Shown here: in pieces, positions 1-38,425 of the stretch
How the letters are laid out: each line of letters starts with the position of its first letter
Position numbering within the stretch: the first letter of the stretch is position 1
NCBI GenBank assembly: GCA_030647005.1
Contig: JAUSKG010000022.1
Coordinates: 18,196 to 82,195, forward strand
DNA: 64,000 nt
Source of the DNA: a bacterium
GTDB taxonomy: Bacteria > Patescibacteriota > Patescibacteriia > JACPHY01
Direction of reading: 5' to 3'
The notes under the pieces: model-generated
What the model was told of the DNA's origin: nothing
Databases searched by the model: none
What the model saw: only the letters and a program-made list of their open reading frames with translations
Program-made: the position numbers and the translations under genes

Positions 1-1367
1 TGCTCCCGCGTCGTGATCCACACAGAGCTGCGCGAGGAGCGGCCGAAGTGCCGTCCATGATTCCACCACGTGAACGTGCGGGAGGAAGCCGTACATATTG
101 TGCAATCCGAATGAGATGACCGGCACACCGAGCACTGCGGATTCAAGGCCGAGCGTCCCAGTAATCACCGCAACCGCACGCGCGCCACGCGCGACGTCGA
201 GCGCATACGCGTACGGCGAGAGCATGATGACATTCGGAATATCGAAAAGCGTCGCGTAGAAATCCCGCGGACGCCGCCCGATTGCAGGGAGGTGCTCTTT
301 CACGACGAGTCGCACACCCGCGGGAAGATTCTTCGCAAGGAATTCAATGCATGCGAGCTGCTCGTTCATTTCGGGACTCATGAGTCCCACGGACGATTCT
401 GGCTCCACATGGAGCGGAAAAAAAACATACGCCATACCCGCAAGTGCCGAAGCATCCGCGAGGGGCATCCGCATGAGACGATGGAAATCCGCGCGGACGC
501 GCGCAAGCGCACGCAACTGCTCTCCAAGGTGGTAATTGCCCATCGTCACCACCCCGCGAACACGCCGATACACTGCATGCCGAATCTGTATCCATGCCTT
601 TTTCACCAGTGCCCGCAATGACGCTTGCCGCGCGAATGACCGATAGTACGCGTCGGTGAACGGAATGCGTCGCATCGCAGCGAGCGCATCATCCGTCACC
701 ACCGCAGCCGCCTCCGCATCGCTCATCACCGTGTACCGACTCGCAATCGCCGGCACCGCAAGATACTCATCCACGCCCCACCCGTGATATGACTGGTAGT
801 ACATCAGAAAAAGCGTTCGCGTAGGAATGCGGCGGTGCCGCGCAATGGCCACACACAACTTGCCGAGCACACTCGACGTGGTACCAATAATCAACGAGGG
901 CGCGACGCGATCGAAGTACTCTTCCCAGAACTTCGCCGCACGATTAAAAAAATTGATGGATCTTTCGTACGTTGCCTGATCGCTCAACCGCGAGCGCGCA
1001 TGACCTGGCCCCGCCGCAGCAAATCCCCGCCCAAGGTGGCGATCCGCCTGGAGCGCATCGGTCGCGAGCAGGCCATAGGTGGTCTCATGCTGACGTGCAC
1101 GCTCGTAGGCGACCGTCTCGGATTCATCCACGCTGCCGTACGCAAGAAAAAAATGATGTACGGTGGTGTATGAATCGATCACTCCATCAACGTCCTGTCG
1201 CTTCCAAAATGCAACACTCGCATCATTCGTCGTCACGAGGTGAATGGCTGCACCATGGCGGCGCTTGAGCTCCCGCGCAAGCGGCACCCAGAGCCACTGC
1301 TGGTTTGTGTAGCCCCAGATGACAATACTACGAAGATGTACGGGGTGCCGCTCCTCATGATACTGCA
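1..1367 (-). CDS. KpsC/KpsS-like (Capsule_synth family) polysaccharide biosynthesis protein, 3'-truncated at the window edge
   Basis: Open minus-strand frame from ATG ~1367 to position 1, with no stop in the window (absent from the ORF track for that reason). Translation begins MQYHEERHPVHLRSIVIWGY... and contains LVVKEHLPAIGRRPRDFY, resembling the K-x-H-P motif region of KpsS/KpsC beta-Kdo transferases. Confidence 0.5.
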
Positions 1368-1377
1368 TAGATGCGCA

Positions 1378-1623
1378 TCACTCGCTCGCCGATGTCGCCG
1401 CACGCTGCGCAAGCGTCGCCCATACTATCGGGTACGACACCATCGCGATGATCTCGGCATCCGTGAATACGACTCCATACCGCTGCTCAATAGTGGTGAC
1501 GAGCGATAAGTGACGCAACGAATCCCATACCGCAACCGTTTCCATCGCGGTCGCCGTACCGATATCCGCCACGTCAACCCCGAGCACCGATGCGAAAAGC
1601 TGTTTAAGTTCTTGTTCCTGCAT
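1378..1623 (-). CDS. acyl carrier protein (ACP-like, ~81 aa)
   Basis: MQEQELKQLFASVLGVDVADIGTATAMETVAVWDSLRHLSLV... is a phosphopantetheine attachment site (D-S-L). The true start is the internal M of ORF 1378..1836 and overlaps the end of the upstream FkbH-like gene. Confidence 0.7.
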   Translation of the reverse strand: MQEQELKQLFASVLGVDVADIGTATAMETVAVWDSLRHLSLVTTIEQRYGVVFTDAEIIAMVSYPIVWATLAQRAATSASE

Positions 1624-3448
1624 AGTGTACGGTGACGTACGGGACCGAATTGATGGTATCTGACGTGCAATCCAATGCGTACCGACGGGCACCGTCGTAC
1701 ACATCCACCCGCATGAACCCGAGACGGTCGTAAAAATCGGCGGCAGGCGCGTTCTTCGCGGAGGAGACGTATGAAGATCGCACCAGTCGCACCCCTTCCG
1801 CGCGAAGCACATCAACGATACACCGCGCGAACGCATATTCCAATGAGCGACCGATCACGCGACAGCTCATGAGGAATGTGTCGAAGTCGGCAACGTCACG
1901 GTCAATCCGTACAATACAGCATCCCGTCACTCCATACTCGCCGAACCGATCTGCCGCGTCGAACGTAAAGCACCGATACGCGGGATTGGCAACAAACGAC
2001 GTTATCTCGCCTTCCGTGTAGCGCTTCGTCGTGCAATTGAATTGGTTCGTTTTCTGAGTAAGCTGCACCATGCGTGGAATCAGCCGCGCGTCATCTACAC
2101 GCACAACGATGCGGAGATCAAGCGATTGCAGAAATTGCTCCGTGCTGACAAAGGACTGCTGTGCGACATTGCGCTGCTCCTCTACACGATACTGCTCCGT
2201 TTTCTGCGTATCCTCTATCGTCACCAAGCGACGATCGAACAACCGCGCAACTGCACGCATGCGTTGTGGATACTCGTGCAGCGCAAGAGGCACCTGCACC
2301 GCCGTCACTTCCGGGCACACCGCACGCACATGTGCAATCTCCACACTCGAATCGTCAATAAATACAACGCTCTCTAACCCCACATGGAGCGTCGAGGCAA
2401 TCGCGCGAAGGTTCGTCACTTTATCCTCCCAGTTCACCAGCTTCGCGGCAATATGTTCATCCCGCAGCACCATGTGCGGGTGTGCCCGAAGCACCGCATC
2501 GACATCTTCAGGATTGTTCTTGCTCGCAAGTGCGATGAGTACTCCACGGCGCTCAAGTGCGCGTGCGAGGTACTGTACCTCTGTATACATCGCACCGTGT
2601 GCAGTCGCAGGATCAAGCGTAATACCATCCACACCGTCCTCCCCCACCGCACCACCCCATAACGTACCGTCACAATCAAAAACGATGACCTTCTTCACAT
2701 CGCCACGCATGGCCCGAATCATTGGCACGAGACGCGCTGCATACGCATGAGCGAATGTCGGTGTATACGGTGCCAATGCGGAAGCGTAGAATCGTCGGTC
2801 GAGGGCGGTCGCGGTCCCAATCTCGGAAAAAATATTATCCACGGACACCGTGACGACATTGGGCAACGCTACGGCAGCAAGGTGCCGATTGAGACGCGCA
2901 GCAAGTTCCTCCAGGCGCCGATCACCTACTACCGCGAGCGAAAAAGCTGTTGCGGTAAACTCATGTACGATCACGAGCGGCACGCGGGCAAGTGACGAAA
3001 GCACCGTATGAAGCGTCTGCTCCGTATGCACTGCCAACGCCTCAACCGCGTCATCGGACATCATTGCAATACGATAGTGAAAACCGCTCGTGAGCCGAGC
3101 GAGCTCCCACCAAAGGATGACGCACGGCACATCACCAATGTGCGCACTCTCCTGCACGAACGCATCGAGACCGCCAGCCCGACATCGCGCAGGCACGCCA
3201 ACAGAGCGTAAATGATACTCGATAATATCAAAAAGCGGAGCAGTGATAATATTGCTCAAAACAGTAATGTCATACGCGCTTGCATCCGTAATCAAACGCC
3301 CGAGCGATCGGTTACGATCCATGAGCGCATCCAACGGAACGAGGGCATCAAATGGCGTGTCTTCATGCATACGAACGCACCGCACGCTGTGCAGTGGTTG
3401 CCTGACGAGCACTGCGAACCCTGTACGCGATCGCGTATGCAATCGCAT
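1604..3448 (-). CDS. FkbH-like HAD-superfamily IIIC phosphatase/acyltransferase (614 aa)
   Basis: KVIVFDCDGTLWGG HAD motif I; size and architecture are typical of the FkbH family. It sits immediately upstream of the ACP. Confidence 0.7.
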   Translation of the reverse strand: MRLHTRSRTGFAVLVRQPLHSVRCVRMHEDTPFDALVPLDALMDRNRSLGRLITDASAYDITVLSNIITAPLFDIIEYHLRSVGVPARCRAGGLDAFVQESAHIGDVPCVILWWELARLTSGFHYRIAMMSDDAVEALAVHTEQTLHTVLSSLARVPLVIVHEFTATAFSLAVVGDRRLEELAARLNRHLAAVALPNVVTVSVDNIFSEIGTATALDRRFYASALAPYTPTFAHAYAARLVPMIRAMRGDVKKVIVFDCDGTLWGGAVGEDGVDGITLDPATAHGAMYTEVQYLARALERRGVLIALASKNNPEDVDAVLRAHPHMVLRDEHIAAKLVNWEDKVTNLRAIASTLHVGLESVVFIDDSSVEIAHVRAVCPEVTAVQVPLALHEYPQRMRAVARLFDRRLVTIEDTQKTEQYRVEEQRNVAQQSFVSTEQFLQSLDLRIVVRVDDARLIPRMVQLTQKTNQFNCTTKRYTEGEITSFVANPAYRCFTFDAADRFGEYGVTGCCIVRIDRDVADFDTFLMSCRVIGRSLEYAFARCIVDVLRAEGVRLVRSSYVSSAKNAPAADFYDRLGFMRVDVYDGARRYALDCTSDTINSVPYVTVHYAGTRT

Positions 3449-3782
3449 GCTGGTCGCAATGAGCCATGCTCACACTCACCGTTATACCCACTGCCGCTGG
3501 ATGGTTGATACGCACCGTCGGCGCTCCACTCGCTCCACGAACAATCTCAATACGTGCAAGAGGTATCGGCTGACACCCAAGAGCACCAAGGGCCTTCACC
3601 ACCGCCTCCTTTGCACTAAACCGCGCAGCAAGACGCTGCGCGGCAGGTTGCTGCGCGTACGCATCCGCAAGCTCCCCCACCGTGAAGATGCGCGCGAGCA
3701 TTCGACCATCACGCGCGCGATCAAGCTCGTAAAACCGCGCAATGGCGACGATATCAACGCCGGCACCAACCTGCGATCGCAC
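3363..3782 (-). CDS. 4'-phosphopantetheinyl transferase (AcpS-type)
   Basis: GAGVDIVAIARF ... FSAKEAVVKALG AcpS motifs. The start is probably the GTG/V about 13 nt after the GNAT stop; the ORF-track N-terminus is likely spurious. Confidence 0.6.
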   Translation of the reverse strand: MRSQVGAGVDIVAIARFYELDRARDGRMLARIFTVGELADAYAQQPAAQRLAARFSAKEAVVKALGALGCQPIPLARIEIVRGASGAPTVRINHPAAVGITVSVSMAHCDQHAIAYAIAYRVRSARQATTAQRAVRSYA

Positions 3783-3792
3783 GGACGTCCGC

Positions 3793-4440
3793 TCAACGTG
3801 TGAGCGGGTCCACTCCTGAAGCGTGCGGAGGGTCCACTCCCGCTTGGTTCGTGGCTTGATGGGCATAATATTCACGATCAAGTAATCCGAAGAGATGGAC
3901 ATCGTGGTAGCTCCCATCTTTAAACACCTCACTGCGCCGCACGCCTTCATGCTGAAACCCAAGTGTGCGGCAGTACAATTGTGCGACTGCCTCTGATAGG
4001 GAACCGCCACCCACTCTGTGCATGTGTAATCCATTGAATGCATGCGCAAGTATGAGTTGGTGGGATTCTACAAAATTGCCAAGGTTACGATGCGTACGCT
4101 CACCAATCACGACCGCAATGGCGCACGTTTGATGGAACCAATCAATCGTATCGAGGGAAATAATCCCGATCAACACCGCGCTCGCTCGGTGCACGATGCC
4201 AAGCTGCAACTTCGTGCGGTTCCCAGCGATCGCCTCACGAAAGTATACACGCTGCGCCTCTCGAGTATTGGGAACATAGCGCTGCTGCATCGCAGCAGTC
4301 GTATCTGGATCGTTGAACCAACGATACCAATTGGTACGATCGATGAGGTCCTCGTCCATCGCGACAAGGTCGATGCTCTTGCCTGTAAGAAACACGTCGT
4401 ATTGTAGAGTATCCATACCAGCAATAGCATTCCTCACCAC
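3793..4440 (-). CDS. GNAT family N-acetyltransferase
   Basis: RimL-like GNAT fold signatures (…AIAVVIGERTHRNLGNFVESHQLILAHAF…). Confidence 0.6.
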   Translation of the reverse strand: MVRNAIAGMDTLQYDVFLTGKSIDLVAMDEDLIDRTNWYRWFNDPDTTAAMQQRYVPNTREAQRVYFREAIAGNRTKLQLGIVHRASAVLIGIISLDTIDWFHQTCAIAVVIGERTHRNLGNFVESHQLILAHAFNGLHMHRVGGGSLSEAVAQLYCRTLGFQHEGVRRSEVFKDGSYHDVHLFGLLDREYYAHQATNQAGVDPPHASGVDPLTR

Positions 4441-5783
4441 GCACGATGCCCAGATTGCTCCCCCGTCAACGCACGCTCCCCCGTGATCGCCCGCCGATGC
4501 AGGAAGACCTTTTCAAACGCCGCGACGATGTCATCGAGGTCCTGCCGCGAGAGTCCGGGGTGCATGAGTTCACTGATAAAAAGATCCGATGCGTGCATAC
4601 GCTCGGCAACGGGACAGCTCCCCGCTGCGTACGTCGCGAGCGCGCTCGGATGTGCGAGCGTGAACGGGTATCCACTGCGGCCGAATGCGATGCGCCGCTG
4701 AAAGAGGGGCAATTGATAGAGTGGTGTGCAGTACCCTCCCCATATTCGCACGCCGAGGTCCTCGTGGTTTTTGGTTGGAGCCAGCTCAGCGCGCACCGCG
4801 TCGAGGAATGCATCACGCGAGCACCCGGCAACGTCGCTCCGAAATAGGAACGGCTGCTCATAATACACGTGGACCGCATCGGGCCGAGCGACCGCCGGCA
4901 TCAGTGCAGGAATCGTACGCAGGCGCTCGGTGAGGTATGCGCAATTGTCGAGCCGCTCCCGCACGAACGCATCGAGCTTCCGGAGCTGACATCGGCTGAT
5001 CGCCGCCTCTACTTCCGTCATGCGAATGTTGCACCCAACCATGTTCACGAGATCTGTCTCGCCTTTGTCACCCACCACCGCCTCCGCGTGATTGCGGATG
5101 AGTCGCACGCGGTTTGCGAGCGCATCATCATCGGTCACGACGACCCCTCCCTCCCCGGCCTGGATGTGTTTATGGCAGTTGAGCGAGAAGACGCCAACGT
5201 CGCCGAGTGTACCCGCATGGCGTCCACGATAGCGCGCGCCGGGTGCCTGCGCCGCGTCCTCAATGACGATGAGGTGATGCTCACGCGCAATCGCGGCGAT
5301 GACATCCGCATCGTATGGCTGCCCGAAAAGGTCTACCACGATGATCGCTTTCGTTCGCGGCGTGATCCGTGCGCGCACGGATGCAGGATCGAGACAAAAA
5401 TACTCTGGCTCGATGTCCGCAAACACGGGGATACCGCCGTACCAGAGTGGCACCGTCGCAGACGCGCTCATGGTGTACGGGGAGACAATCACCTCATCGC
5501 CCGGGCTGATCCCCGCTGCCCCCACCGCAGCCATGAGTCCCGAGGTGGCAGAGTTCACCGCGATCGCGTGGCGCACGCCGAATCGCTGCGCCCACTCTTC
5601 CTCGAGCGCACGCACTTCCGGGCCGCCAAAAAACCGCGCATCCCACGAGCCGAGGAACCCGGAGAGCGTACCGCTCTCGAGCACACGCGCGACTGCCGCC
5701 TGTTCCTCCGCGCCGATGGTGCGATAATCGGGAAACGGGTGTCGCCGGACCGGAGTGCCGCCATGGAGTGCGAGTATTGACAT
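4434..5783 (-). CDS. DegT/DnrJ/EryC1/StrS-family PLP-dependent sugar aminotransferase
   Basis: AIAVNSATSGLMAA...GDEVIVSPYTMSASA...FSLNCHKHI (Lys in HK) are typical of DegT. Confidence 0.8.
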   Translation of the reverse strand: MSILALHGGTPVRRHPFPDYRTIGAEEQAAVARVLESGTLSGFLGSWDARFFGGPEVRALEEEWAQRFGVRHAIAVNSATSGLMAAVGAAGISPGDEVIVSPYTMSASATVPLWYGGIPVFADIEPEYFCLDPASVRARITPRTKAIIVVDLFGQPYDADVIAAIAREHHLIVIEDAAQAPGARYRGRHAGTLGDVGVFSLNCHKHIQAGEGGVVVTDDDALANRVRLIRNHAEAVVGDKGETDLVNMVGCNIRMTEVEAAISRCQLRKLDAFVRERLDNCAYLTERLRTIPALMPAVARPDAVHVYYEQPFLFRSDVAGCSRDAFLDAVRAELAPTKNHEDLGVRIWGGYCTPLYQLPLFQRRIAFGRSGYPFTLAHPSALATYAAGSCPVAERMHASDLFISELMHPGLSRQDLDDIVAAFEKVFLHRRAITGERALTGEQSGHRAW

Positions 5784-5795
5784 ACCTACGGAGCA

Positions 5796-14177: not shown

Positions 14178-14263
14178 AGTGGCGTAGGTACTTGTCCGCA
14201 CCTGGCGCGGGAGCACCAGAGGATCAAAAGAGTGCGCATCATGCGCACTCTCATACAACGCAT

Positions 14264-15328: not shown

Positions 15329-15330
15329 GT

Positions 15331-19625: not shown

Positions 19626-19728
19626 ACGCGCACGACGGACGACACCGTATCTTGGACCAGCGTACCGCACGAGCGCGCGCCCGCAAGAGAAACGGACGGC
19701 CCATGAGGAGCCGTCCGTTCAGACACCG

Positions 19729-32944: not shown

Positions 32945-33991
32945 TCATACGGGGCCGCGTGCGTCGAGGTACCGCGCCCGGAAGTCCGCAATGATGCGCT
33001 CAGCGGACCACTGACGGAACGGAATTTCGAGGCAAACAATTTCCATGGTCTTGAGCGCGTCGCGGATCGGCGCTGGAGCCGGCGCGTCCATGTAGTCGCT
33101 CACATCAATAAGTGTCGGCGGGATGCCAGAGAAGTGACAGATGGGCCAGTGCGGCAGCGCGAGGTACGCCGCAATGGAGCGATCAAACCAATCGAGCACC
33201 GAGCACGTCGGGGATTCCTTTGCCAGCACGGTGTACTGATTTACAGCAACCGCAACGTGTGTGAAATCAATGAGGCAGCGCCACCCGGACCCGAGGGCGA
33301 CGAGGAGCATCTCCATGTCCTCCGGCGTACCACCGAACCCCCAAAACATATCCCGACTCCAGGACGTGCGCGCACCAATCACGGCCTCGTACCACTCCCG
33401 CTTGACGACAGGGGGCACGTTCTCCACCGCGAGACACGACCCATCATCGAGACCACCGAGTGCGTCCATCATCCGCCGCCGCGCCTCGCCGTCATCGTGG
33501 TACTGCCCGTACCCGGGATGCACCACGCCCATGGGGATGCCATGCGGGCGCACTGCTGCGCGTGCGACGCATTTCCCCCACACGATGGTTTCCGCGCACC
33601 ATTCCGCCCAGCTGCGATCGAGCGGTCTCCCGCGTATCGCGTAGGAACCGGTCTCGTCGAATCGCTCCGCAAAATCCACCCCGCAGTTCTCGGCACCGAA
33701 GTGCACAAACACTGGCATTCCGGTGGGCAGTCGAGCCACGATGCCCGGCAGATCATCCGTGGTGACCCCAGGTGTGTAGCTCGAATGTGCGACGCGCATC
33801 TGAATACCCTGTATGATGCCACGCTCGAAGAGCACGCACTGGAGTACGAAGTGCTGATCCTGTGCGACGAGATTCTCAAACCACAATCCACCGTAGACAT
33901 CTACCATCACTATTCTCCATGGAAAAGAACCACGCCGCAACAGTATCCTGCTGCGGCGAAAGACGCAAGTATCTGCGGTACCACACGTCAA
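32945..33991 (-). CDS. hypothetical protein (348 aa)
   Basis: Long ORF in the operon frame pattern. Its start overlaps the upstream stop by ATGA. No family recognised. Confidence 0.4.
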   Translation of the reverse strand: MTCGTADTCVFRRSRILLRRGSFPWRIVMVDVYGGLWFENLVAQDQHFVLQCVLFERGIIQGIQMRVAHSSYTPGVTTDDLPGIVARLPTGMPVFVHFGAENCGVDFAERFDETGSYAIRGRPLDRSWAEWCAETIVWGKCVARAAVRPHGIPMGVVHPGYGQYHDDGEARRRMMDALGGLDDGSCLAVENVPPVVKREWYEAVIGARTSWSRDMFWGFGGTPEDMEMLLVALGSGWRCLIDFTHVAVAVNQYTVLAKESPTCSVLDWFDRSIAAYLALPHWPICHFSGIPPTLIDVSDYMDAPAPAPIRDALKTMEIVCLEIPFRQWSAERIIADFRARYLDARGPV

Positions 33992-36513
33992 TTGTACCTC
34001 CGGAACACCGGCTTCACTGCGGGTCCCACGAGATACCGATCACGGTGCGCGGTATCATTGAGCGCGCGCGAATACGCGGGGAGCACGCGCTCCACTGCGG
34101 CGAGCGTCTCGGCAATCTCCGCGTCGCCGTGTGAGAAGGAAAGCACAAACGCACCTTGGAAGAGCATCCGCTCCTTGATCATCTCCTGCAGGAGTATCGT
34201 CTTCAGTACGAGCGAAACCGTCCCATCGCGCTCGGTGCACTGTACCATCGTGTTGCATGGGAAACCGATGACGCGGATGGAATCGGTAAGCCCTGCGGCG
34301 GCAAGGCGGCTACGAAGACCGTTCTGGAGCTGCACCCCGCGCTCCCAGAGGTGCCGTGCAACATCCTCGCGCTCGACCGTGATGATCGCTGCATACGCTG
34401 CCGCAAGCGCAATCGTTTCTGCGCCGTGGGTCGTCGAAATAAGAAACACGCGCGGCTTATCGTGATGGAGACCGCCGAGCTCCATGACATCGCGCCGTCC
34501 GGCGAGCACTGCGCACGAGTATCCGTTGGCAATGCCCTTGCCGTACGTCGAAAGATCCGGATGGATCTTGTACCGCGCCTGCGCGCCACCGATACCAAAC
34601 CGGAAGCCCGTAATCATCTCGTCCATGATGAGCAACGCGCCCTCGCGTGCAGTAATCGCGCGCACGCCCTCCAAAAACCCAGGCGCCGGATCTTCCGTGG
34701 TCATCGCCTCCATAATGACGCACGCAATCTCTCCGGGATGCTCCGCGAAAAGCTGCTCGACACTCGCGAGATCGTTATAGGCGAACTTTAATGTCAATCC
34801 CTTAATCTCCTCGGGGACGCCTGCGTCGCATGCAGTGGTGCCAATGAACCAATCGTCGTAACTGAAGAACGGCTGATTGCACGCGGCGATGTACTTCCGT
34901 CCGGTAAACGCCCGCGCGAGCTTCGTTGCCGCCGTCGTCACTGTGGAACCATTCTTTGCAAACTTGACCATGTCCGCGTGCGGAAGTTTCGCGGTGAGGA
35001 GATCTGCAAGCTCAAACTCGACAACGTGCGGGCGTCCAAAATTGGTGCCCATGTCCATCTGCGCGCGCACGGCCTCCTGCACCGCCGGGTAGCAGTGCCC
35101 AAGGAGCACGGAGCGCAACCCCATGCACCAGTCCACATACTCCACGCCGTCGCTACCGATCACGCGCGCACCATTCCCGCGCACGATGGCCGCGGGCGCA
35201 TTGGCGGAGAACTGATCATCGCCTTTCGAATTCGTATGCGCACCACCGGGGATAAGATCATGGCGGCGAGCGAGGAGCGCATCGAGTGACGCGCTGGTGC
35301 GCGGAGAGACATCACGACGTGCAGGGAGTGCGGAATAGTGTTGGATGCATTGCGTGACGGTGGCGATGACACGCTGCACGTCGTCATCACTCATGGCAGG
35401 GAAGAGCGGAATCGTGAGGCAGTGGTCGTAGTACGCCTCGGCGCTCGGACACCGCACGGCAGCGTACGCGGACTGCGCACGGTAGTACGGGTGACGGTAC
35501 ACGGGGAGATAGTGTACTTGCGTCCCAACCCCGCGAGCAGCGAGGTCCGCAACGACTGCCGCGCGCGTCGTCCCGAGCGCGGCAAAATCACACTGGAGGA
35601 CATACAGGTGCGCGTTCGTCACGCGATCGGGCAGCCATGTCGGCGGCGTGAGGTGTGGGATACCGGAAAACGCCGCATCGTACGCCGCGACGATCGCGCG
35701 ACGGCGCGCCATGAACTGCGGGAGCTTCTGGAGCTGCGAAATGCCGAGTGCCGCCTGGAGATCCGTGAGGAAGTAGTTGTACCCCAATGCAATCTCCTCG
35801 TGATACCACGGCCCGTCAGCCGGTGATCGAAACTGAAGCGGGTCTTTCGTGATGCCGTGACCGCGGAGCAGCGCGATGCGATCGCGGAGCGCCGCATCGC
35901 GCGCGGTGACTGCGCCGCCTTCCCCAGTCGTAATGTGCTTCACGGGATGAAAGCTGAACACCGCGAAATCGCTCTGCGTGCACGCACCGATGATCTGCCC
36001 GCGATAGACGGACCCGAGCGTATGGCACGCGTCCTCAATAATCCAAACCTTCTTGCCAAATCGCCGCTCCGCATCGCGCGCGATCATGGCGATTGCGTCC
36101 ATGTCCGCGCTCTGTCCGGCAAAGTGCACGGGAATGATCGCGCGCGTCCGTGCAGTCACCTTCCGTGCAACATCCGCGACATCCACGCATGTCGTCGCGG
36201 GGTCAACGTCCGCGAACACCGTCACCGCACCGCAGTATGCAACGCAGTTTGCACTTGCTGCGAAGGTGATCGCAGGAACAATAACCTCATCGCCCGTACC
36301 AATTCCTGCCGCGAGACAAGCGAGGTGCAGTCCCGCAGTTCCGGAAGAGCATGCGACGACGTGCGGCGTACCAACGACCGGGACGAGCGCGCGCTCAAAT
36401 GCGGCAATCGTCGGCCCGCGGGCGATCGTCGCAGACCGGAGGACCGCAGCTACCGCCGCGATGTCGTCCGCATCCACCATCTGGCGTCCGTACGGAATGA
36501 TCTGCTCGTTCAT
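33988..36513 (-). CDS. bifunctional DegT-type aminotransferase / glutamate-1-semialdehyde-2,1-aminomutase-like (class III aminotransferase) fusion (841 aa)
   Basis: The N-terminal half reads VVACSSGTAGLHLA...GDEVIVPAITFAASA...FSFHPVKHI (DegT). The C-terminal half reads GGAHTNSKG...DEMITGFRFG...TYGKGIANG (HemL-like PLP fold). Confidence 0.75.
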   Translation of the reverse strand: MNEQIIPYGRQMVDADDIAAVAAVLRSATIARGPTIAAFERALVPVVGTPHVVACSSGTAGLHLACLAAGIGTGDEVIVPAITFAASANCVAYCGAVTVFADVDPATTCVDVADVARKVTARTRAIIPVHFAGQSADMDAIAMIARDAERRFGKKVWIIEDACHTLGSVYRGQIIGACTQSDFAVFSFHPVKHITTGEGGAVTARDAALRDRIALLRGHGITKDPLQFRSPADGPWYHEEIALGYNYFLTDLQAALGISQLQKLPQFMARRRAIVAAYDAAFSGIPHLTPPTWLPDRVTNAHLYVLQCDFAALGTTRAAVVADLAARGVGTQVHYLPVYRHPYYRAQSAYAAVRCPSAEAYYDHCLTIPLFPAMSDDDVQRVIATVTQCIQHYSALPARRDVSPRTSASLDALLARRHDLIPGGAHTNSKGDDQFSANAPAAIVRGNGARVIGSDGVEYVDWCMGLRSVLLGHCYPAVQEAVRAQMDMGTNFGRPHVVEFELADLLTAKLPHADMVKFAKNGSTVTTAATKLARAFTGRKYIAACNQPFFSYDDWFIGTTACDAGVPEEIKGLTLKFAYNDLASVEQLFAEHPGEIACVIMEAMTTEDPAPGFLEGVRAITAREGALLIMDEMITGFRFGIGGAQARYKIHPDLSTYGKGIANGYSCAVLAGRRDVMELGGLHHDKPRVFLISTTHGAETIALAAAYAAIITVEREDVARHLWERGVQLQNGLRSRLAAAGLTDSIRVIGFPCNTMVQCTERDGTVSLVLKTILLQEMIKERMLFQGAFVLSFSHGDAEIAETLAAVERVLPAYSRALNDTAHRDRYLVGPAVKPVFRRYN

Positions 36514-37565
36514 ACTGGTGCGCCGGACGGCGTTGCAATCGGTATGTGCAGGTGCTCGGCATGCTGTGCGCCATCGAGTACCGCAATGGCCTGCCGAAGA
36601 TGCGACACATCAAAGAACCAGGAGTTACTGTCTGAACTGTACTCAAACCCATCGCGACAACGCGCTGCGTCCCGGTACGCTGCAGCGCGCTGTGCAAAAC
36701 GATCCTGCGGGAGGAGCATGTAGTACCCACGGAATTCCAGCGTGTTCCGGGAGTCATCACGACCAATGAGCACTTCGTGGATCTTTTCTCCCGGACGAAT
36801 ACCGACATGCTCCTGTCGAACGCCTGGCGCAATCGCTTCCGCGAGATCAGAAATTTTCATCGAGGGAATCTTCGGCACGAAAATCTCATACCCCTTTGCG
36901 GCCATGAGCACGCCGAGCACAAACCGCGCCGCCTGATCGAGCGTAATCCAGAACCGCGTCATGCGGGGGTCTGTAACCGGAATAACACCCTGTACCGCGC
37001 ACTGCCGGAAGTACGGAATGACTGACCCACGGGAACCTATGACATTTCCATACCGTACAACCGTAAAAACCTTCTCATGTCCACTGCCGTACGCGTTCGC
37101 GGCAATGAAAAGCTTGTCCGAGCAGAGCTTCGTTGCGCCGTAAAGATTGATCGGGTTACACGCCTTGTCTGTCGAGAGCGCAATAACACGCTTCACGCCA
37201 TTCTCCAACGCAGCATCAATGACATGCATAGCACCCATGACGTTCGTGCGAATGCACTCCGCGGGATTGTACTCCGCGGCCGGAACCTGCTTCAATGCCG
37301 CTGCGTGCACGACGTAGTCCACTCCATGGAATGCACGGATGAGCCGCTCGCGATCACGCACGTCACCGATGAAGTACCGGAGACAGGGGTACCGCTCGGT
37401 GCTCAACTGTTGCTGCATCTCATATTGCTTGAGCTCATCGCGGCTGAAGATGATGAGTTTCTTCGGTTTCCAATTCGCGAGGATGTACTGGGTGAGTTGC
37501 TTACCCAGTGAACCGGTGCCGCCGGTAATGAGAATGGTGCTGCCGTCGAACTCCGCGTATGGCAT
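36510..37565 (-). CDS. pseB: UDP-N-acetylglucosamine 4,6-dehydratase (inverting), PseB/FlaA1/CapD-like
   Basis: ILITGGTGSLGK, YFIGDVRDRERL, IHAAALKQVPAAEYNP, NPINLYGATKLCSDKLF and VRYGNVIGSRGSVIP are near-identical in pattern to H. pylori FlaA1/PseB. Confidence 0.85.
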   Translation of the reverse strand: MPYAEFDGSTILITGGTGSLGKQLTQYILANWKPKKLIIFSRDELKQYEMQQQLSTERYPCLRYFIGDVRDRERLIRAFHGVDYVVHAAALKQVPAAEYNPAECIRTNVMGAMHVIDAALENGVKRVIALSTDKACNPINLYGATKLCSDKLFIAANAYGSGHEKVFTVVRYGNVIGSRGSVIPYFRQCAVQGVIPVTDPRMTRFWITLDQAARFVLGVLMAAKGYEIFVPKIPSMKISDLAEAIAPGVRQEHVGIRPGEKIHEVLIGRDDSRNTLEFRGYYMLLPQDRFAQRAAAYRDAARCRDGFEYSSDSNSWFFDVSHLRQAIAVLDGAQHAEHLHIPIATPSGAPV

Positions 37566-37574
37566 AGATGATCG

Positions 37575-38276
37575 TTACCGATTTTCCGATGATGCCGGTG
37601 CGCGCATGTAGGAGGTCATGGTACTCCCAGCGAGAGCGTGCGCAGCGAGTCCGGGAAGACGACTCACGAGAAACAACGCGTTACCAGCTGCGGAGGGAAA
37701 GCCGAGCGCGAGCGCGAGCGCCGCAAGGCATCCGTCCACATTCAGAGGGATACGACGACCCTTCGCCGTCGCGAGTGCCTCCGAGAGCGCACGAGCACGC
37801 TCCAAAGGAGGCCCTGCGATCCCGAGCGTCGAGGCGCGAATAAAAAGTGCGGTGGTCCGCGGGTCCTCCTCCGTATACACCTTATGCCCAAAACCGGGGA
37901 GACGTTCGTCTGCGGCGATGGCTGCATGCACAACCGCGACCGGATCGCCCGCGCGCGCTAACAACTCCATCGCCGCACTCACCGCGCACCCGTGCCGCGG
38001 CCCCATGGTGAGAATGCCGGCGGCGATCGCGGTGTGGAGCGCGTTCCCCGTCGAAGCCGAGACCCGCGCCGCCACGGTGGATGGTGGCTCCTCTCCGTGA
38101 TCGCACGCAGCGACGAGCATCGCATCGAGCATGGCGCGCTCGCGCTCAAGCGGCCGCGATCCGCGAAGGAGGAGAAACACCACATCCACGAACGATGCCT
38201 CGGCGATGAGGGACGCGAGCGGAACGCCGACAACGTCGGGTGCATGCTCATGATGCGTGGAATTCATAGTATGCAT
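37575..38276 (-). CDS. citrate synthase-family small protein (citryl-CoA lyase-like)
   Basis: GFGHKVYTEEDPR, the canonical citrate-synthase catalytic His motif. Only the ~230-aa small-domain form is present. First gene of the long minus-strand array. Confidence 0.55.
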   Translation of the reverse strand: MHTMNSTHHEHAPDVVGVPLASLIAEASFVDVVFLLLRGSRPLERERAMLDAMLVAACDHGEEPPSTVAARVSASTGNALHTAIAAGILTMGPRHGCAVSAAMELLARAGDPVAVVHAAIAADERLPGFGHKVYTEEDPRTTALFIRASTLGIAGPPLERARALSEALATAKGRRIPLNVDGCLAALALALGFPSAAGNALFLVSRLPGLAAHALAGSTMTSYMRAPASSENR

Positions 38277-38425
38277 ACCACTGCTCCGCGACGAACAGCG
38301 TGCATCTCTCCAAGCTCCTGAAGAGTGCCGCAACATCCGTATCCCCATCATTGCGAAACAACGAGAGCGTGTCCAATGAACGAAATGCAGCCCCCAGAAG
38401 AGGGGCTGCACGTACTCCACCAACG

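What the first reader, a model, noticed from the sequence alone, without database searches (positions are those of the whole stretch)
1..38300. About 38 kb co-directional glycan island with three NeuB-family synthases and three CMP-sugar cytidylyltransferases
Every gene from 38.3 kb down to position 1 is on the minus strand (about 38 genes), and most junctions are 4-nt ATGA overlaps. The island holds three NeuB/PseI/LegI paralogs (9410–10453, 28156–29184, 29960–30964) and three cytidylyltransferases. It also has PseB, four DegT aminotransferases, two formyltransferases, an acetamidino module, AsnB-like, PIG-L deacetylase, MocA oxidoreductases, SDRs and GNATs. That is enough for two or three distinct nonulosonic acids, or one very heavily tailored one. 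This density of NulO tailoring functions in a single transcription unit is unusual and likely encodes an undescribed glycan.
Basis: partly seen in the sequence, partly recalled or inferred. Interest (0 to 1): 0.9.

Follow-up and report, generated by a model that had tools for sequence, protein, structure and literature searches.

The report
Three-synthase sialic-acid-like sugar island
A likely ultra-small (candidate-phyla-radiation) bacterium carries a gene island of at least 45 kb for making, decorating and exporting sialic-acid-like nine-carbon surface sugars. It encodes three sugar synthases, one of which belongs to a conserved, undescribed enzyme subfamily with a remodelled active site.

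Summary
Window 1-38.4 kb holds 37 tightly packed minus-strand genes, including three NeuB+SAF synthases and three CTP_transf_3 cytidylyltransferases. PseB and PseC score above their NCBIfam equivalog cut-offs.

- There are three DegT domains, not four.
- Only 13 of 36 junctions are 4-nt overlaps, and 10 of those are ATGA.
- The co-directional run extends to 61.4 kb and includes housekeeping genes, so it is not specific to the island.
- The island continues at least 6.9 kb past position 1 and probably starts near 47.9 kb.

New findings:
- LeuRS places the source nearest Candidatus Uhrbacteria (Patescibacteria/CPR).
- None of the three synthases falls in the PseI clade.
- NeuB#3 belongs to a deep subfamily with conserved pocket changes (N29G, H30Y/F, C182G, N184Q, Y186E, S213Q/M). 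It is followed by its own cytidylyltransferase in 10 of 10 loci. A canonical NeuB lies within 10 kb in 7 of 7 loci.
- The cassette is syntenic with an Uhrbacteria contig at 36-69% amino-acid identity and recurs in Margulisiibacteriota and Omnitrophica.

Verdict: this is a multi-product CMP-nonulosonic acid island, a new variant of a known kind. The products are inferred, not shown.

The parts
1..1368 (-). g01: KpsC/KpsS-like (Capsule_synth superfamily) protein, a candidate CMP-ulosonic-acid glycosyltransferase. Its 3' end runs off the window; the full length is 528 aa on Logan contig L082.
   Evidence: The six-frame read shows the ORF running off position 1. Pfam Capsule_synth is weak for g01 itself (E 0.0024), but 39 of 42 family members match it, best E 2.6e-12. 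The family profile hits KpsC structures, 6MGD at E 9e-4. The family has 5719 cluster representatives.
1378..1623 (-). g02: acyl carrier protein (81 aa)
   Evidence: PP-binding, 23.6 bits. The gene call matches L082.
1604..3370 (-). g03: FkbH-domain protein (HAD-IIIC), predicted to load a glyceryl unit onto the ACP
   Evidence: TIGR01686 FkbH 239 bits against a cut-off of 147.
3363..3782 (-). g04: 4'-phosphopantetheinyl transferase
   Evidence: ACPS, 59 bits. Called as 139 aa on L082.
3793..4437 (-). g05: GNAT N-acyltransferase, weakly PseH-like
   Evidence: Acetyltransf_3, 41 bits. PseH 37 bits, below the cut-off of 93.
4434..5783 (-). g06: DegT-family sugar aminotransferase (a)
   Evidence: DegT_DnrJ_EryC1, 287 bits. 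PseC 198 and LegC 164, both below cut-off. 55% identical to a Chthoniobacter homologue in a two-NeuB locus.
5796..6818 (-). g07: Gfo/Idh/MocA oxidoreductase (a)
   Evidence: GFO_IDH_MocA N- and C-terminal domains. Best NCBIfam hit is IolG-like, 82 bits.
6815..7588 (-). g08: CMP-sugar cytidylyltransferase (a)
   Evidence: CTP_transf_3, 62 bits. KdsB-type subfamilies 50-55 bits, PseF 22 bits, all below cut-off.
7585..9405 (-). g09: glutamine-dependent AsnB-type amidotransferase
   Evidence: TIGR01536, 374 bits against a cut-off of 267.
9410..10453 (-). g10: NeuB#1, a NulO synthase with canonical active-site residues
   Evidence: NeuB 230 and SAF 32 bits. TIGR NeuB 288 and PseI 220, both below cut-off. 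Residues; tree.
10450..10908 (-). g11: HIT-family nucleotide hydrolase/transferase
   Evidence: HIT, 23.4 bits against a cut-off of 21.5.
10915..11898 (-). g12: sugar N-formyltransferase (a), like the ArnA N-terminal domain or Fmt
   Evidence: Formyl_trans_N 82 and Formyl_trans_C 55 bits. PRK06988, 168 bits.
11912..12973 (-). g13: extended SDR, like an NDP-sugar 4,6-dehydratase or epimerase
   Evidence: Epimerase 148 and GDP_Man_Dehyd 118 bits. Best NCBIfam hits are dTDP-glucose dehydratase 111 and LegB 77, both below cut-off.
12987..14258 (-). g14: DegT-family aminotransferase (b)
   Evidence: DegT, 381 bits. PseC 300 and LegC 219, both below cut-off. 67% identical to the Uhrbacteria ortholog.
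14264..15334 (-). g15: Gfo/Idh/MocA oxidoreductase (b)
   Evidence: 51% identical to the Uhrbacteria ortholog.
15331..16038 (-). g16: CMP-sugar cytidylyltransferase (b)
   Evidence: CTP_transf_3, 103 bits. 51% identical to the Uhrbacteria ortholog.
16035..16943 (-). g17: SAM-dependent methyltransferase
   Evidence: Methyltransf_23, 60 bits.
17083..18252 (-). g18: N-acetyl sugar amidotransferase (WbuX/PseA/PtmG type)
   Evidence: TIGR03573, 330 bits against a cut-off of 203.
18257..19003 (-). g19: HisF-like cyclase subunit (WbuZ type)
   Evidence: His_biosynth, 175 bits.
18993..19670 (-). g20: HisH-like glutaminase subunit (WbuY type)
   Evidence: GATase, 75 bits.
19729..20637 (-). g21: polytopic membrane protein of unknown family
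   Evidence: Frame chosen by codon usage. Several hydrophobic segments. No Pfam or NCBIfam hit.
20703..22295 (-). g22: GT-B-fold protein of a very rare family. It is either an analogue of a hydrolysing NDP-sugar 2-epimerase or a CMP-sugar/TagF-like transferase.
22256..23329 (-). g23: formyltransferase (b)
   Evidence: Formyl_trans_C 47 and Formyl_trans_N 25 bits. Start chosen by frame scan. 51% identical to the Uhrbacteria ortholog.
23331..24029 (-). g24: PIG-L family de-N-acetylase
   Evidence: PIG-L, 90 bits.
24036..24758 (-). g25: classical SDR oxidoreductase
   Evidence: adh_short_C2, 169 bits.
24755..25888 (-). g26: APH-like kinase fold (weak)
   Evidence: APH, 22 bits, below the cut-off of 23.2.
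25866..27080 (-). g27: unknown protein, weakly GAPDH-like, with an N-terminal Rossmann motif and an SCQSNG motif
   Evidence: No Pfam, NCBIfam or PDB hit. A global alignment to a GAPDH scores z 3.9, with the catalytic Cys and His aligned.
27077..28159 (-). g28: ATP-grasp ligase
   Evidence: ATPgrasp_Ter, 52 bits; PylC-like_N.
28156..29184 (-). g29: NeuB#2, a NulO synthase with near-canonical active-site residues (position 134 is Asn)
   Evidence: NeuB 229 and SAF 43 bits. TIGR NeuB 292 and PseI 236, both below cut-off. Best PDB hit is B. subtilis SpsE, 171 bits. 51% identical to the Uhrbacteria ortholog.
29181..29963 (-). g30: divergent cytidylyltransferase (c), the invariable partner of NeuB#3-type synthases
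   Evidence: CTP_transf_3, 33 bits. No NCBIfam hit. It lies immediately downstream of NeuB3-type genes in 10 of 10 loci.
29960..30964 (-). g31: NeuB#3, a member of a deep NeuB subfamily with a remodelled substrate pocket
   Evidence: NeuB 139 and SAF 31 bits. Clade signature, tree, homologues.
30961..32046 (-). g32: DUF218 (YdcF-like) domain fused to a PseH-like GNAT
   Evidence: DUF218 40 and Acetyltransf_3 65 bits. PseH 50 bits, below the cut-off of 93. Called as 361 aa on L001.
31985..32869 (-). g33: aldo-keto reductase
   Evidence: Aldo_ket_red, 99 bits.
32945..33907 (-). g34: unknown 320-aa protein, followed by a strong hairpin at 32937-32912
   Evidence: No Pfam, NCBIfam or PDB hit. The single-sequence AF2 model failed, pLDDT 33. 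Hairpin.
33988..36513 (-). g35: fusion of PseC (DegT) with a class III aminotransferase like glutamate-1-semialdehyde aminomutase (841 aa)
   Evidence: PseC, 450 bits against a cut-off of 423. PRK06209, 550 bits against a cut-off of 486.
36510..37565 (-). g36: PseB, the inverting UDP-GlcNAc 4,6-dehydratase
   Evidence: TIGR03589, 486 bits against a cut-off of 408.
37575..38423 (-). g37: citryl-CoA-lyase-like protein directly upstream of PseB. Its membership of the island is uncertain.
   Evidence: Citrate_synt, 132 bits. NF004869, 195 bits, below the cut-off of 212.
43546..44442 (-). g40: FolD, a possible supplier of 10-formyl-THF to the two formyltransferases. Its membership of the island is uncertain.
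   Evidence: THF_DHG_CYH N- and C-terminal domains.
44453..44914 (-). g41: GtrA-family membrane protein, linked to translocation of lipid-linked sugars
   Evidence: GtrA_DPMS_TM, 91 bits.
47343..47930 (-). g44: RmlC-like cupin (sugar isomerase/epimerase fold). This is the probable upstream edge of the glycan genes, and it overlaps the LeuRS stop by 1 nt.
   Evidence: dTDP_sugar_isom, 47 bits. Junction.

Best explanation
The region is a surface-glycan island for biosynthesis, tailoring, transfer and export. It makes at least two, probably three, different CMP-activated 2-keto-3-deoxy nonulosonic acids.

SHOWN
- g36 is PseB and the N-terminal half of g35 is PseC, both at equivalog level. They convert UDP-GlcNAc into UDP-4-amino-4,6-dideoxy-beta-L-AltNAc.
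- There are three NeuB-family PEP-condensing synthases and three CTP_transf_3 cytidylyltransferases.

INFERRED FROM GENE ORDER AND CONSERVED NEIGHBOURHOODS: three sub-pathways
- Sub-pathway A: PseB, the PseC/class-III-aminotransferase fusion, AKR, DUF218-GNAT, NeuB#3 and its dedicated cytidylyltransferase g30.
- Sub-pathway B: NeuB#2 with cytidylyltransferase g16 and MocA g15.
- Sub-pathway C, a Leg-like chain: dehydratase-like SDR g13, DegT g14, N-formyltransferase g12, HIT g11, NeuB#1, AsnB and cytidylyltransferase g08, together with MocA g07 and DegT g06.

INFERRED FROM ESTABLISHED ROLES OF THE FAMILIES: tailoring
- PIG-L plus formyltransferase swap N-acetyl for free amine or N-formyl.
- WbuX/HisH/HisF make an acetamidino group, and the methyltransferase methylates it.
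- FkbH/ACP/PPTase plus a GNAT add a glyceroyl-type N-acyl group.
- ATP-grasp and AsnB form amide linkages.
- The recurring cytidylyltransferase-MocA-aminotransferase triads probably introduce a further amino group by oxidation and transamination.

INFERRED: delivery
- Delivery uses a KpsC/KpsS-like transferase (g01), a GT-B protein (g22) and GtrA.
- Just beyond the window it also uses a PglK/MsbA-like ABC exporter, a FemAB-like enzyme and an AglJ-like GT2.

The host is most likely a Patescibacteria (CPR) bacterium. The acceptor is therefore probably a surface protein or lipid-linked polymer rather than LPS or flagellin.
For: - PseB scores 486 against a cut-off of 408, and PseC 450 against 423.
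- The three synthases are only 28-41% identical to each other, so they are ancient paralogs and not recent duplicates.
- NeuB#1 and NeuB#2 keep the canonical pocket residues: N29/H30, C182, Y186 and S213, as well as E25, K53, Q55, K129, H215, E234, H236, D247 and R314. NeuB#3 keeps the metal ligands and the two catalytic glutamates E25 and E234, but carries a pocket signature conserved in 76 clade members.
- NeuB3-type genes are followed by the g30-type cytidylyltransferase in 10 of 10 loci. A canonical NeuB lies within 10 kb in 7 of 7 such loci, against 3 of 80 control loci (Fisher 2e-8).
- The Uhrbacteria contig JACQMM010000031.1 is syntenic across g36 to g14 at 36-69% identity. Related cassettes occur in Margulisiibacteriota, Omnitrophica and other metagenomes, and in a second population of the same sample.
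- Precedents for the tailoring steps exist. A deacetylase plus formyltransferase in the Ca. Kuenenia cluster gives CMP-NulOs with a free or formylated amine (preprint 10.64898/2026.04.20.719630). The C. jejuni glycosylation locus has an FkbH-domain gene (PMC7099621). NulO transferases in T. forsythia have a GT-B/TagB-like fold (PMC5420450).
- g01 belongs to the KpsC/KpsS family. g22 has a GT-B fold.
- The nearest named relatives of LeuRS are Uhrbacteria, top hit 63%.
Against: - No product has been observed. Every step after PseC is inferred.
- None of the three synthases reaches the NeuB or PseI equivalog cut-off, and none groups with PseI. It is therefore not established which enzyme condenses the PseB/PseC product.
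- No recognisable PseG or NeuC/LegG (Epimerase_2) is present. The nucleotide-removal step rests on candidates only: g22, g11 HIT, the DUF218 domain and g34.
- Assigning genes to three sub-pathways from gene order is one plausible parse, not the only one.
- Several related loci show two NeuB genes but only one cytidylyltransferase within 10 kb either side. A strict rule of one synthase, one activase and one product may therefore not hold.
- The tree is neighbour-joining on one alignment, without support values.
- The CPR assignment rests on one housekeeping protein.
Confidence: 0.7

Rival explanations
1. The island makes one heavily tailored pseudaminic-acid-type sugar. It has a single productive pathway: PseB, PseC, GNAT, an unknown hydrolase, one NeuB and one cytidylyltransferase. 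The other NeuB and cytidylyltransferase copies are redundant, alternative or regulatory paralogs.
For: Only the Pse front end reaches equivalog level. No second clear 4,6-dehydratase of LegB type passes its cut-off. No NeuC/LegG is present (Pfam searches show no Epimerase_2). Some related loci have two NeuB genes but only one cytidylyltransferase within 10 kb.
Against: The paralogs are only 28-41% identical and each keeps the metal ligands H215/H236 and the catalytic glutamates E25/E234. Each has its own conserved orthologs in other lineages. There are three synthases and three cytidylyltransferases, each with a nearby aminotransferase. The pairing of NeuB#3 with g30 is conserved in 10 of 10 loci, which argues for selection on a distinct function.
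Confidence: 0.12
2. The NeuB#3/g30 pair does not make a Pse, Leg or Neu-type nonulosonic acid. It makes a chemically different CMP-activated 2-keto-3-deoxy acid, for example one with a free or extra amino group or a different chain length. The canonical NeuB copies make conventional 5,7-diamino NulOs.
For: The NeuB#3 clade branches outside the PseI and NeuB/LegI-like groups. It has fixed changes at pocket positions that are canonical in the characterised reference enzymes: N29G, H30Y/F, M157G, C182G, N184Q, Y186E and S213Q/M. It always has its own divergent cytidylyltransferase, which has no NCBIfam hit. It always co-occurs with a canonical NeuB. It is repeatedly flanked by a class III (omega-type) aminotransferase, MocA and AKR. 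CMP-ulosonic acids with no assigned structure or genes are known to exist.
Against: In 5 of 7 loci the pair sits directly after PseB/PseC. That fits equally well with a PseI analogue acting on a variant of the Pse intermediate. R314, the residue that contacts the N-acetyl group in NmNeuB (from my knowledge of that structure), is retained. No biochemical data exist.
Confidence: 0.3
3. The clustering is a by-product of genome architecture. In a small, strand-biased CPR genome, unrelated sugar genes merely sit next to each other, so there is no functional island.
For: The whole 61-kb stretch is co-directional and tightly packed, housekeeping genes included.
Against: Gene content and order are shared with loci from other phyla whose GC content is 0.41-0.48, against 0.61 here. 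About 35 consecutive genes belong to sugar-nucleotide, acyl or amide-tailoring families. Multi-NeuB loci are rare, 3 of 80.
Confidence: 0.02

Closest known systems
Campylobacter jejuni NCTC 11168 flagellar glycosylation locus (Cj1293-Cj1342)
   Same: It is a large locus that combines more than one NulO pathway: pseI and legI, pseF and legF. It also has HisH/HisF/amidotransferase modules for acetamidino groups, a methyltransferase, ACPs and an FkbH-domain gene for a glyceroyl-type acyl group. The gene list is from my own knowledge. The FkbH-domain gene cj1302 is cited in PMC7099621, and the Pse and Leg derivative repertoire.
   Different: - No Maf transferases, flagellin or DUF2920 genes are seen here.
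- There are three synthases rather than two, and none is in the PseI clade.
- NeuC/LegG and PseG are not recognisable.
- Extra parts are present: MocA/aminotransferase triads, a class III aminotransferase fusion, ATP-grasp, AsnB, two formyltransferases and a KpsC-like transferase.
- The host is probably a non-flagellated CPR bacterium.
Leptospira interrogans NulO cluster
   Same: One cluster holds multiple NulO synthases, aminotransferases and CMP-NulO synthetases, and has been interpreted as making several NulO species (PMC3438082). NeuB#1 and NeuB#2 sit near the Leptospira synthase 6NCS in the tree.
   Different: The Leptospira cluster encodes a complete Leg pathway with LegG and LegH homologues, plus a synthase-phosphatase fusion. 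It has no Pse front end, no NeuB#3-type enzyme, and no FkbH or formyl modules.
Candidatus Kuenenia stuttgartiensis Leg-type cluster with deacetylase and formyltransferase (SugarBase preprint, 10.64898/2026.04.20.719630)
   Same: A deacetylase and a formyltransferase are embedded among NulO genes. CMP-NulOs with a free amine, an N-formyl group and a methyl group have been observed, which shows that such tailoring happens at the CMP-sugar level. The PIG-L/formyltransferase pair g24/g23 is the counterpart here.
   Different: Kuenenia has a single Leg-type pathway that includes legG. The island here has three synthases, a Pse front end and many more tailoring genes.
Tannerella forsythia Pse5Am7Gra / Leg-derivative loci and their NulO transferases
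   Same: The sugar carries acetamidino plus N-glyceroyl decoration. The dedicated GT-B/TagB-like NulO transferases have an HP motif (PMC5420450). This parallels the WbuX module, the FkbH module and the GT-B protein g22, which has an invariant K-x-H-P-D-R motif.
   Different: T. forsythia has one NulO per strain within a canonical pathway. No sequence similarity between g22 and the T. forsythia enzymes was tested.
Legionella pneumophila serogroup 6/12 O-antigen cluster
   Same: The gene set is the same: GNAT, PseG, a GSA-aminomutase-like class III aminotransferase, acylneuraminate cytidylyltransferase, HisF/HisH, an LPS biosynthesis (WbuX-type) protein, an AKR-like oxidoreductase and DegT (PMC3694923). 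It is the only cultured-organism parallel I found for the class III aminotransferase/AKR/cytidylyltransferase association.
   Different: It is an LPS O-antigen locus in a Gram-negative pathogen. Whether it carries a NeuB#3-type synthase was not examined, and its chemistry has not been assigned to these genes.

Membership tests
NeuB-family NulO synthases (Pfam NeuB + SAF) | NeuB TIM-barrel domain plus a C-terminal SAF domain | tested here: met
   All three ORFs score above the Pfam gathering thresholds for both domains.
NeuB-family NulO synthases (Pfam NeuB + SAF) | Metal ligands H215/H236, catalytic E25/E134/E234, PEP and sugar contacts K53, Q55, K129, N184, Y186, S213, and R314 (NmNeuB numbering) | tested here: inconclusive
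   NeuB#1 and NeuB#2 keep all of these except position 134, which is D and N respectively. NeuB#3 keeps H215, H236, E25, E234, K53, Q55, K129, D247 and R314, but has N184Q, Y186E, S213Q, N29G, H30Y and N at 134. E134D is common in environmental enzymes (PMC8208679).
Pseudaminic acid pathway (PseB, C, H, G, I, F) | PseB, the inverting 4,6-dehydratase | tested here: met
   TIGR03589, 486 bits against a cut-off of 408.
Pseudaminic acid pathway (PseB, C, H, G, I, F) | PseC aminotransferase | tested here: met
   TIGR03588, 450 bits against a cut-off of 423, for the N-terminal half of g35.
Pseudaminic acid pathway (PseB, C, H, G, I, F) | PseH N-acetyltransferase | tested here: inconclusive
   The GNAT domains of g32 (50 bits) and g05 (37 bits) match TIGR03585 below its cut-off of 93.
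Pseudaminic acid pathway (PseB, C, H, G, I, F) | PseG UDP-sugar hydrolase (Glyco_tran_28_C-type GT-B) | tested here: not met
   No Pfam or NCBIfam PseG hit in any island ORF. The only GT-B candidate is g22, which is structurally nearer to 2-epimerases and TarL. A relative locus, L088, does carry a PseG-like gene.
Pseudaminic acid pathway (PseB, C, H, G, I, F) | PseI synthase | tested here: not met
   TIGR03586 scores are 220, 236 and 153 against a cut-off of 340. For each paralog this is lower than its NeuB_NnaB score. None groups with CjPseI (8H2C) or a PGAP-annotated pseI.
Pseudaminic acid pathway (PseB, C, H, G, I, F) | PseF cytidylyltransferase | tested here: not met
   TIGR03584 scores are 22 and 29 bits, with none for g30, against a cut-off of 206. 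All three are nevertheless CTP_transf_3 members.
Legionaminic acid pathway (LegB, C, H, G, I, F) | LegB and LegC at family level | tested here: not met
   g13 scores 77 bits on LegB against a cut-off of 475. g14 scores 219 bits on LegC against a cut-off of 420.
Legionaminic acid pathway (LegB, C, H, G, I, F) | LegG/NeuC hydrolysing 2-epimerase (Epimerase_2) | tested here: not met
Neu5Ac pathway (NeuC, NeuB, NeuA) | NeuB equivalog (TIGR03569) | tested here: not met
   Scores are 288, 292 and 180 against a cut-off of 400.
Flagellin glycosylation island (Campylobacter/Aeromonas type) | Maf (motility accessory factor) transferase and neighbouring flagellar genes | tested here: not met
   No Maf/MptE-like or flagellar Pfam family appears among the roughly 60 window ORFs scanned with Pfam or NCBIfam, or in the L082 extension.
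KpsC/KpsS (Capsule_synth) CMP-Kdo-dependent glycosyltransferases, for g01 | Match to the Capsule_synth domain | tested here: inconclusive
   g01 itself scores 17.8 bits, below the cut-off of 20. 39 of 42 relatives match, best E 2.6e-12, and the family profile hits KpsC structures at E 9e-4. Donor specificity cannot be tested here.
Acetamidino (WbuX/WbuY/WbuZ; PseA/PtmG) module | N-acetyl sugar amidotransferase together with HisH- and HisF-like subunits | tested here: met
   TIGR03573, 330 bits against a cut-off of 203. GATase and His_biosynth genes are adjacent.

The most novel reading that the evidence does not exclude
The NeuB#3-type synthase and its dedicated cytidylyltransferase define a previously unrecognised class of CMP-activated ulosonic acid, distinct from Neu, Leg and Pse types. 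It would be made alongside a conventional nonulosonic acid by a laterally spread cassette. The cassette's backbone is PseB, PseC, NeuB#3, cytidylyltransferase, a class III aminotransferase and a second NeuB; MocA and AKR flank it in only some loci. It occurs in Patescibacteria, Margulisiibacteriota, Omnitrophica and relatives. In a CPR bacterium, this island of 45-55 kb would be a sizeable share of a genome of about 1 Mb (a typical CPR size, from my knowledge). That would point to an elaborate acidic surface glycan as central to the episymbiotic lifestyle.
Probability: 0.3. Interest if true: 0.8.

Novelty: new variant of a known kind. Interest (0 to 1): 0.62.

Why it matters
Nonulosonic acids cap bacterial surface structures and control recognition by hosts, phages and neighbouring cells. 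Recent mass spectrometry keeps finding CMP-ulosonic acids that have no assigned genes, such as free-amine, formylated and extended-backbone forms.

This island offers three things:
1. A concrete, conserved gene set with an uncharacterised NeuB subfamily that can be tested directly by expression and CMP-sugar profiling.
2. Candidate enzymes for N-formyl, N-glyceroyl, acetamidino and extra-amino decoration.
3. Evidence that a probable CPR bacterium, a group known for minimal biosynthetic capacity, invests heavily in a complex acidic surface sugar.

I found no paper in the searchable library that links CPR/Patescibacteria with NulO biosynthesis.

Tried and rejected
- Genome-collection scan with NeuB#2. 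The best relative is only 44% identical. Neither the source genome nor the Uhrbacteria locus was returned, so the scan served only as a background set.
- Metagenome scan with NeuB#3 gave only 8 loci.
- Sequence searches of g22, g27 and g34 against PDB chains gave nothing.
- Pairwise BLASTP of g22 and g01 against each other, and against the PGAP 'surface carbohydrate biosynthesis protein' next to an Azospirillum neuB, gave no similarity.
- Single-sequence AlphaFold of g34 failed, with pLDDT 33.5.
- The AFDB fold library was unavailable.
- GC3 filtering could not separate the coding strand from antisense ORFs at this GC content. I replaced it with a codon-usage frame scan.
- One contig look-up was wasted on P0001, which returned the same Logan contig.
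- The large-scale NulO synthase phylogeny paper gave no information on copy number per genome or on the NeuB#3 signature.
- Rfam and tRNA scans of the window were empty.
- Rejected: recent duplication as the origin of the three synthases, because they are only 28-41% identical.
- Rejected: recent horizontal acquisition of the island. Its GC is 0.609 against 0.640 in the flank, while related cassettes have 0.41-0.48.
- Rejected: hidden opposite-strand genes.
- Rejected: a flagellin-glycosylation island, because there are no Maf or flagellar genes.

Full report
OBSERVATION

The window has about 62% G+C, so mechanical ORF lists are full of antisense shadows. I trained a codon-usage model on Pfam-supported genes. 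It assigns the minus strand continuously from 226 to 61426, and the plus strand only from about 61.7 kb, where an RNase Y gene lies.

The ten longest plus-strand ORFs inside 1-38.3 kb have no Pfam match. Independent gene calls on two Logan contigs from the same sample (SRR13727527) agree with my model. The array is therefore not interrupted by opposite-strand genes.

From 38423 down to position 1 I count 37 genes. Of their 36 junctions:
- 13 are 4-nt overlaps (10 ATGA, 2 GTGA, 1 TTGA);
- 6 are other overlaps;
- 12 are gaps of 15 nt or less;
- 5 are gaps of 58-139 nt.

The packing is very tight, but 'mostly ATGA' is an overstatement.

Co-directionality is a property of the whole 61-kb stretch. 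That stretch also holds LeuRS, glutamate dehydrogenase, an AAA ATPase, thioredoxin-reductase-like and IF-2 genes. It is not specific to the island.

A single transcript is not demonstrated. Terminator-like sites do not exceed shuffled expectation. One strong 10-bp GC-rich hairpin lies directly after the stop of the 32945-33907 gene.

GENE CONTENT

In order of transcription:
- PseB (486 bits on TIGR03589, cut-off 408).
- An 841-aa fusion of PseC (450 bits, cut-off 423) with a class III aminotransferase of the PRK06209 'GSA-aminomutase-like' family (550 bits, cut-off 486).
- An unknown 320-aa protein.
- An aldo-keto reductase.
- A DUF218-GNAT fusion (weakly PseH-like).
- NeuB#3, then a divergent cytidylyltransferase, then NeuB#2.
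- An ATP-grasp ligase, an unknown weakly GAPDH-like protein and an APH-like protein.
- An SDR, a PIG-L deacetylase and a formyltransferase.
- An unknown 530-aa protein and a polytopic membrane protein.
- HisH-like, HisF-like and WbuX amidotransferase genes.
- A methyltransferase, a cytidylyltransferase, a MocA oxidoreductase and a DegT.
- An extended SDR, a second formyltransferase and a HIT protein.
- NeuB#1, AsnB, a cytidylyltransferase, a MocA and a DegT.
- A GNAT, a PPTase, FkbH and an ACP.
- A final gene that runs off the window edge.

BORDERS

The island is truncated by the window. On Logan contig L082 the last gene is 528 aa long. It is followed, in the same direction, by:
- an ABC exporter (HepA/MsbA/PglK-like);
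- a FemAB-family protein;
- a GNAT;
- a second PIG-L;
- an AglJ/ArnC-like GT2;
- one more gene.

Upstream of PseB lie further minus-strand genes:
- a citryl-CoA-lyase-like gene;
- a 1369-aa Cys-rich MopE-repeat lipoprotein;
- a secreted or membrane protein;
- FolD;
- GtrA, with a small membrane ORF in front of it;
- two genes like citryl-CoA or succinyl-CoA synthetase;
- an RmlC-like cupin that overlaps the LeuRS stop codon.

The glycan region therefore probably spans from about 47.9 kb to beyond position 1, at least 45-55 kb. The membership of the genes between 37.6 and 47.9 kb is uncertain.

SOURCE ORGANISM

NeuB#3, the 530-aa protein and LeuRS are each 99-100% identical to proteins of an NCBI MAG labelled only '[bacterium]'. 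These carry locus tags Q7S96_ and lie on a 98,333-bp contig.

The nearest named relatives of LeuRS are Candidatus Uhrbacteria, with a top hit of 63%. Other Uhrbacteria and Patescibacteria follow. The source is therefore most likely a CPR/Patescibacteria bacterium. This is an inference from one marker.

Island G+C (0.609) is close to that of the housekeeping flank (0.640). Related cassettes elsewhere have 0.41-0.48. The island is therefore long resident, not a recent import.

THE THREE SYNTHASES

The three are only 28-41% identical to each other. None reaches the NCBIfam equivalog cut-off for NeuB (scores 288, 292 and 180; cut-off 400) or for PseI (scores 220, 236 and 153; cut-off 340).

I built a neighbour-joining tree with these references: CjPseI (8H2C), NmNeuB (1XUU), the Leptospira synthase 6NCS, a PGAP-annotated pseI, two PGAP-annotated neuB from Leg-type contexts, and about 100 other sequences.
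- NeuB#1 and NeuB#2 fall near the Leptospira enzyme and the NeuB/LegI-like group, outside the PseI clade.
- NeuB#3 and its relatives form a separate deep branch.

Against NmNeuB numbering, 76 members of the NeuB#3 clade keep E25, K53, Q55, K129, D214, H215, E234, H236, D247 and R314. They carry fixed changes at N29G, H30Y/F, M157G, C182G, N184Q, Y186E and S213Q/M. NeuB#1 and NeuB#2 are canonical at these positions.

This looks like a functional enzyme with a remodelled substrate pocket. It does not look like a decaying paralog.

A CONSERVED CASSETTE

The NeuB#3-type gene is followed immediately by the g30-type cytidylyltransferase in all 10 loci examined. A canonical NeuB lies within 10 kb in all 7 loci with enough flank. 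Among loci retrieved with NeuB#2 the figure is 3 of 80 (Fisher 2e-8).

The Candidatus Uhrbacteria contig JACQMM010000031.1 shares gene content, and largely gene order, with the window. The shared genes and their amino-acid identities are:
- PseB, 66%;
- class III aminotransferase, 31%;
- AKR, 44%;
- DUF218, 42%;
- NeuB#3, 55%;
- cytidylyltransferase (c), 60%;
- NeuB#2, 51%;
- formyltransferase (b), 51%;
- the 530-aa protein, 36%;
- HisH, 65%, and HisF, 69%;
- cytidylyltransferase (b), 51%;
- MocA, 51%;
- DegT, 67%.

Variants of the core recur in a Margulisiibacteriota contig, an Omnitrophica contig and other metagenomes. The core there is PseB, PseC, [AKR], NeuB#3, cytidylyltransferase, [MocA], class III aminotransferase, [PseG-like or TIM-barrel protein] and a second NeuB. 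A sibling population in the same sample carries the downstream half at 56-76% identity.

A cultured-organism parallel for part of the set exists in the L. pneumophila Sg6/12 O-antigen cluster (PMC3694923). It has GNAT, PseG, a GSA-aminomutase-like protein, a cytidylyltransferase, HisF/H, an AKR-like protein and DegT.

UNKNOWN PROTEINS

The 530-aa protein (g22) belongs to a very rare family, with 9 members found among 5.8 billion sequences.
- An AlphaFold model from that alignment is confident (pLDDT 83.5, pTM 0.85) and has a GT-B fold.
- Foldseek ranks UDP-GlcNAc 2-epimerases first, including hydrolysing NeuC.
- It could be the missing hydrolysing 2-epimerase/PseG analogue, or a CMP-sugar transferase of the TagB/TagF type like the T. 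forsythia NulO transferases (PMC5420450). I cannot decide between these.

The last gene (g01) belongs to a large family, with 5719 cluster representatives.
- 39 of 42 sampled members match Pfam Capsule_synth.
- The family profile hits KpsC beta-Kdo transferase structures.
- A weak relative sits between pseF and pseG in a canonical pse cluster on a Sphingobium plasmid.
- It is the best candidate for the CMP-ulosonic acid transferase.

g34 remains unknown, because its single-sequence model failed.

MECHANISM

Shown:
- the first two Pse steps, by PseB and PseC;
- three PEP-condensing synthases;
- three cytidylyltransferases;
- the acetamidino module;
- FkbH, ACP and PPTase;
- the deacetylase and two formyltransferases.

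Inferred: three synthase/activase pairs give up to three CMP-ulosonic acids.
- One plausible parse puts NeuB#3 and g30 behind the Pse front end, together with the class III aminotransferase.
- A second parse unit is a Leg-like chain of g13 (dehydratase-like SDR), g14 (DegT), g12 (N-formyltransferase), g11 (HIT), NeuB#1 and g08.
- NeuB#2 would pair with g16.

Tailoring by analogy:
- PIG-L plus formyltransferase give a free or formylated amine at the CMP-sugar level, as in Ca. Kuenenia. FolD may supply the formyl donor.
- WbuX/HisH/HisF plus the methyltransferase give (N-methyl)acetamidino groups. This follows PseA/PtmG/PtmH of C. jejuni, which I cite from my own knowledge.
- FkbH/ACP/PPTase plus a GNAT give a glyceroyl-type N-acyl group, by analogy with the C. 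jejuni cj1302 context and with T. forsythia Pse5Am7Gra.
- ATP-grasp and AsnB form amide bonds.

A cytidylyltransferase-MocA-aminotransferase triad recurs twice here and also in the Uhrbacteria, Chthoniobacter and other loci. This suggests oxidation and transamination of a CMP-linked sugar to add a further amino group.

The nearest solved relatives of the class III aminotransferase include GSAM and aminoglycoside C-6' aminotransferases, which act on terminal aldehydes.

Export and transfer would use g01, g22, GtrA, the ABC exporter and the AglJ-like GT2.

COMPARISON AND NOVELTY

The kind of system is well known. It is a NulO island with several pathways and many tailoring genes, as in C. jejuni and L. 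interrogans.

What is new:
- Three synthases lie in one locus.
- No recognisable PseI, PseG or LegG is present, despite equivalog-level PseB and PseC.
- A conserved NeuB subfamily with an altered pocket is always paired with its own cytidylyltransferase and always accompanied by a canonical NeuB.
- The probable host is CPR.

The searchable literature holds nothing that links CPR/Patescibacteria with NulO biosynthesis. The large-scale synthase phylogeny does not describe the NeuB#3 signature.

I rate it a new variant of a known kind, with interest 0.62. It gives directly testable enzymes for unassigned CMP-ulosonic acids. Every claim about products is inference.

Noticed in passing
window 37575-38423, 45252-46205 and 46215-47282 (minus strand): A citryl-CoA-lyase-like gene (NF004869, 195 bits, just below the cut-off of 212) sits directly upstream of PseB. 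Its expected partners lie 7 kb further upstream: an ATP-grasp_2+Citrate_bind protein and a CoA_binding+Ligase_CoA protein. The three are separated by GtrA, FolD and a giant surface protein. This could be a split ATP-citrate-lyase or citryl-CoA-synthetase-like system, or an acyl-CoA supply for sugar acylation.
   Followed up: partly
window 38426-42535 (minus strand): A 1369-aa protein with a lipoprotein-like signal peptide (…LVGAC). It is 9% Cys and 13% Asp, with about 20 'CDGxDNDCDG' MopE-type repeats and a distinct C-terminal domain. It is embedded between the glycan genes and could be a surface adhesin or a glycosylation target.
   Followed up: partly
window 33988-36513 (minus strand): PseC is fused in frame to a class III (GSA-aminomutase-like) aminotransferase, giving 841 aa. 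In relatives the two are separate genes. A Margulisiibacteriota locus instead fuses an SDR domain to the DegT (706 aa, L083 7869-9989).
   Followed up: partly
window 44868-45212 (minus strand): The apparent 337-nt intergenic gap upstream of GtrA holds a small membrane-protein ORF of about 114 aa, in the frame favoured by codon usage.
   Followed up: partly
window 32912-32937 (minus strand): A strong 10-bp hairpin with 9 G-C pairs lies immediately after the stop codon of the unknown gene g34 and 43 nt before the AKR start. It could be an internal terminator or attenuator, although its T-tract is weak.
   Followed up: no
L100 11743-17511 (Logan SRR22388020 contig): A related cassette carries 2-Hacid_dh, FAA_hydrolase, HAD, CTP_transf_3, an HpcH/HpaI pyruvate aldolase, MocA and SIS genes next to the g22 homologue. 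This may be an aldolase-based route to a second CMP-activated keto-acid sugar. A similar set (2-Hacid_dh, FAA_hydrolase, CTP_transf_3, GAPDH) occurs in the Oligoflexia locus L087.
   Followed up: no
L101 (Logan SRR13727527 contig, 9079 bp): A second population in the same sample carries the formyltransferase, g22, HisH, HisF, WbuX, methyltransferase, cytidylyltransferase and MocA genes in the same order, at 56-76% identity. It lacks the membrane gene g21.
   Followed up: partly
window 1-61426: Every gene over 61 kb is on one strand and GC skew is uniformly negative. This is consistent with strong co-orientation with replication in a small genome. The first plus-strand gene is RNase Y at 61671-63374.
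   Followed up: partly
window 3363-4049 versus 3793-4440 (minus strand): The longest PPTase ORF would overlap the 3' end of the GNAT gene by about 250 nt, and codon usage favours the PPTase frame up to about 3976. The Logan gene call starts it at 3782, giving 139 aa, which is short for an Sfp-type PPTase. The true start is uncertain.
   Followed up: no
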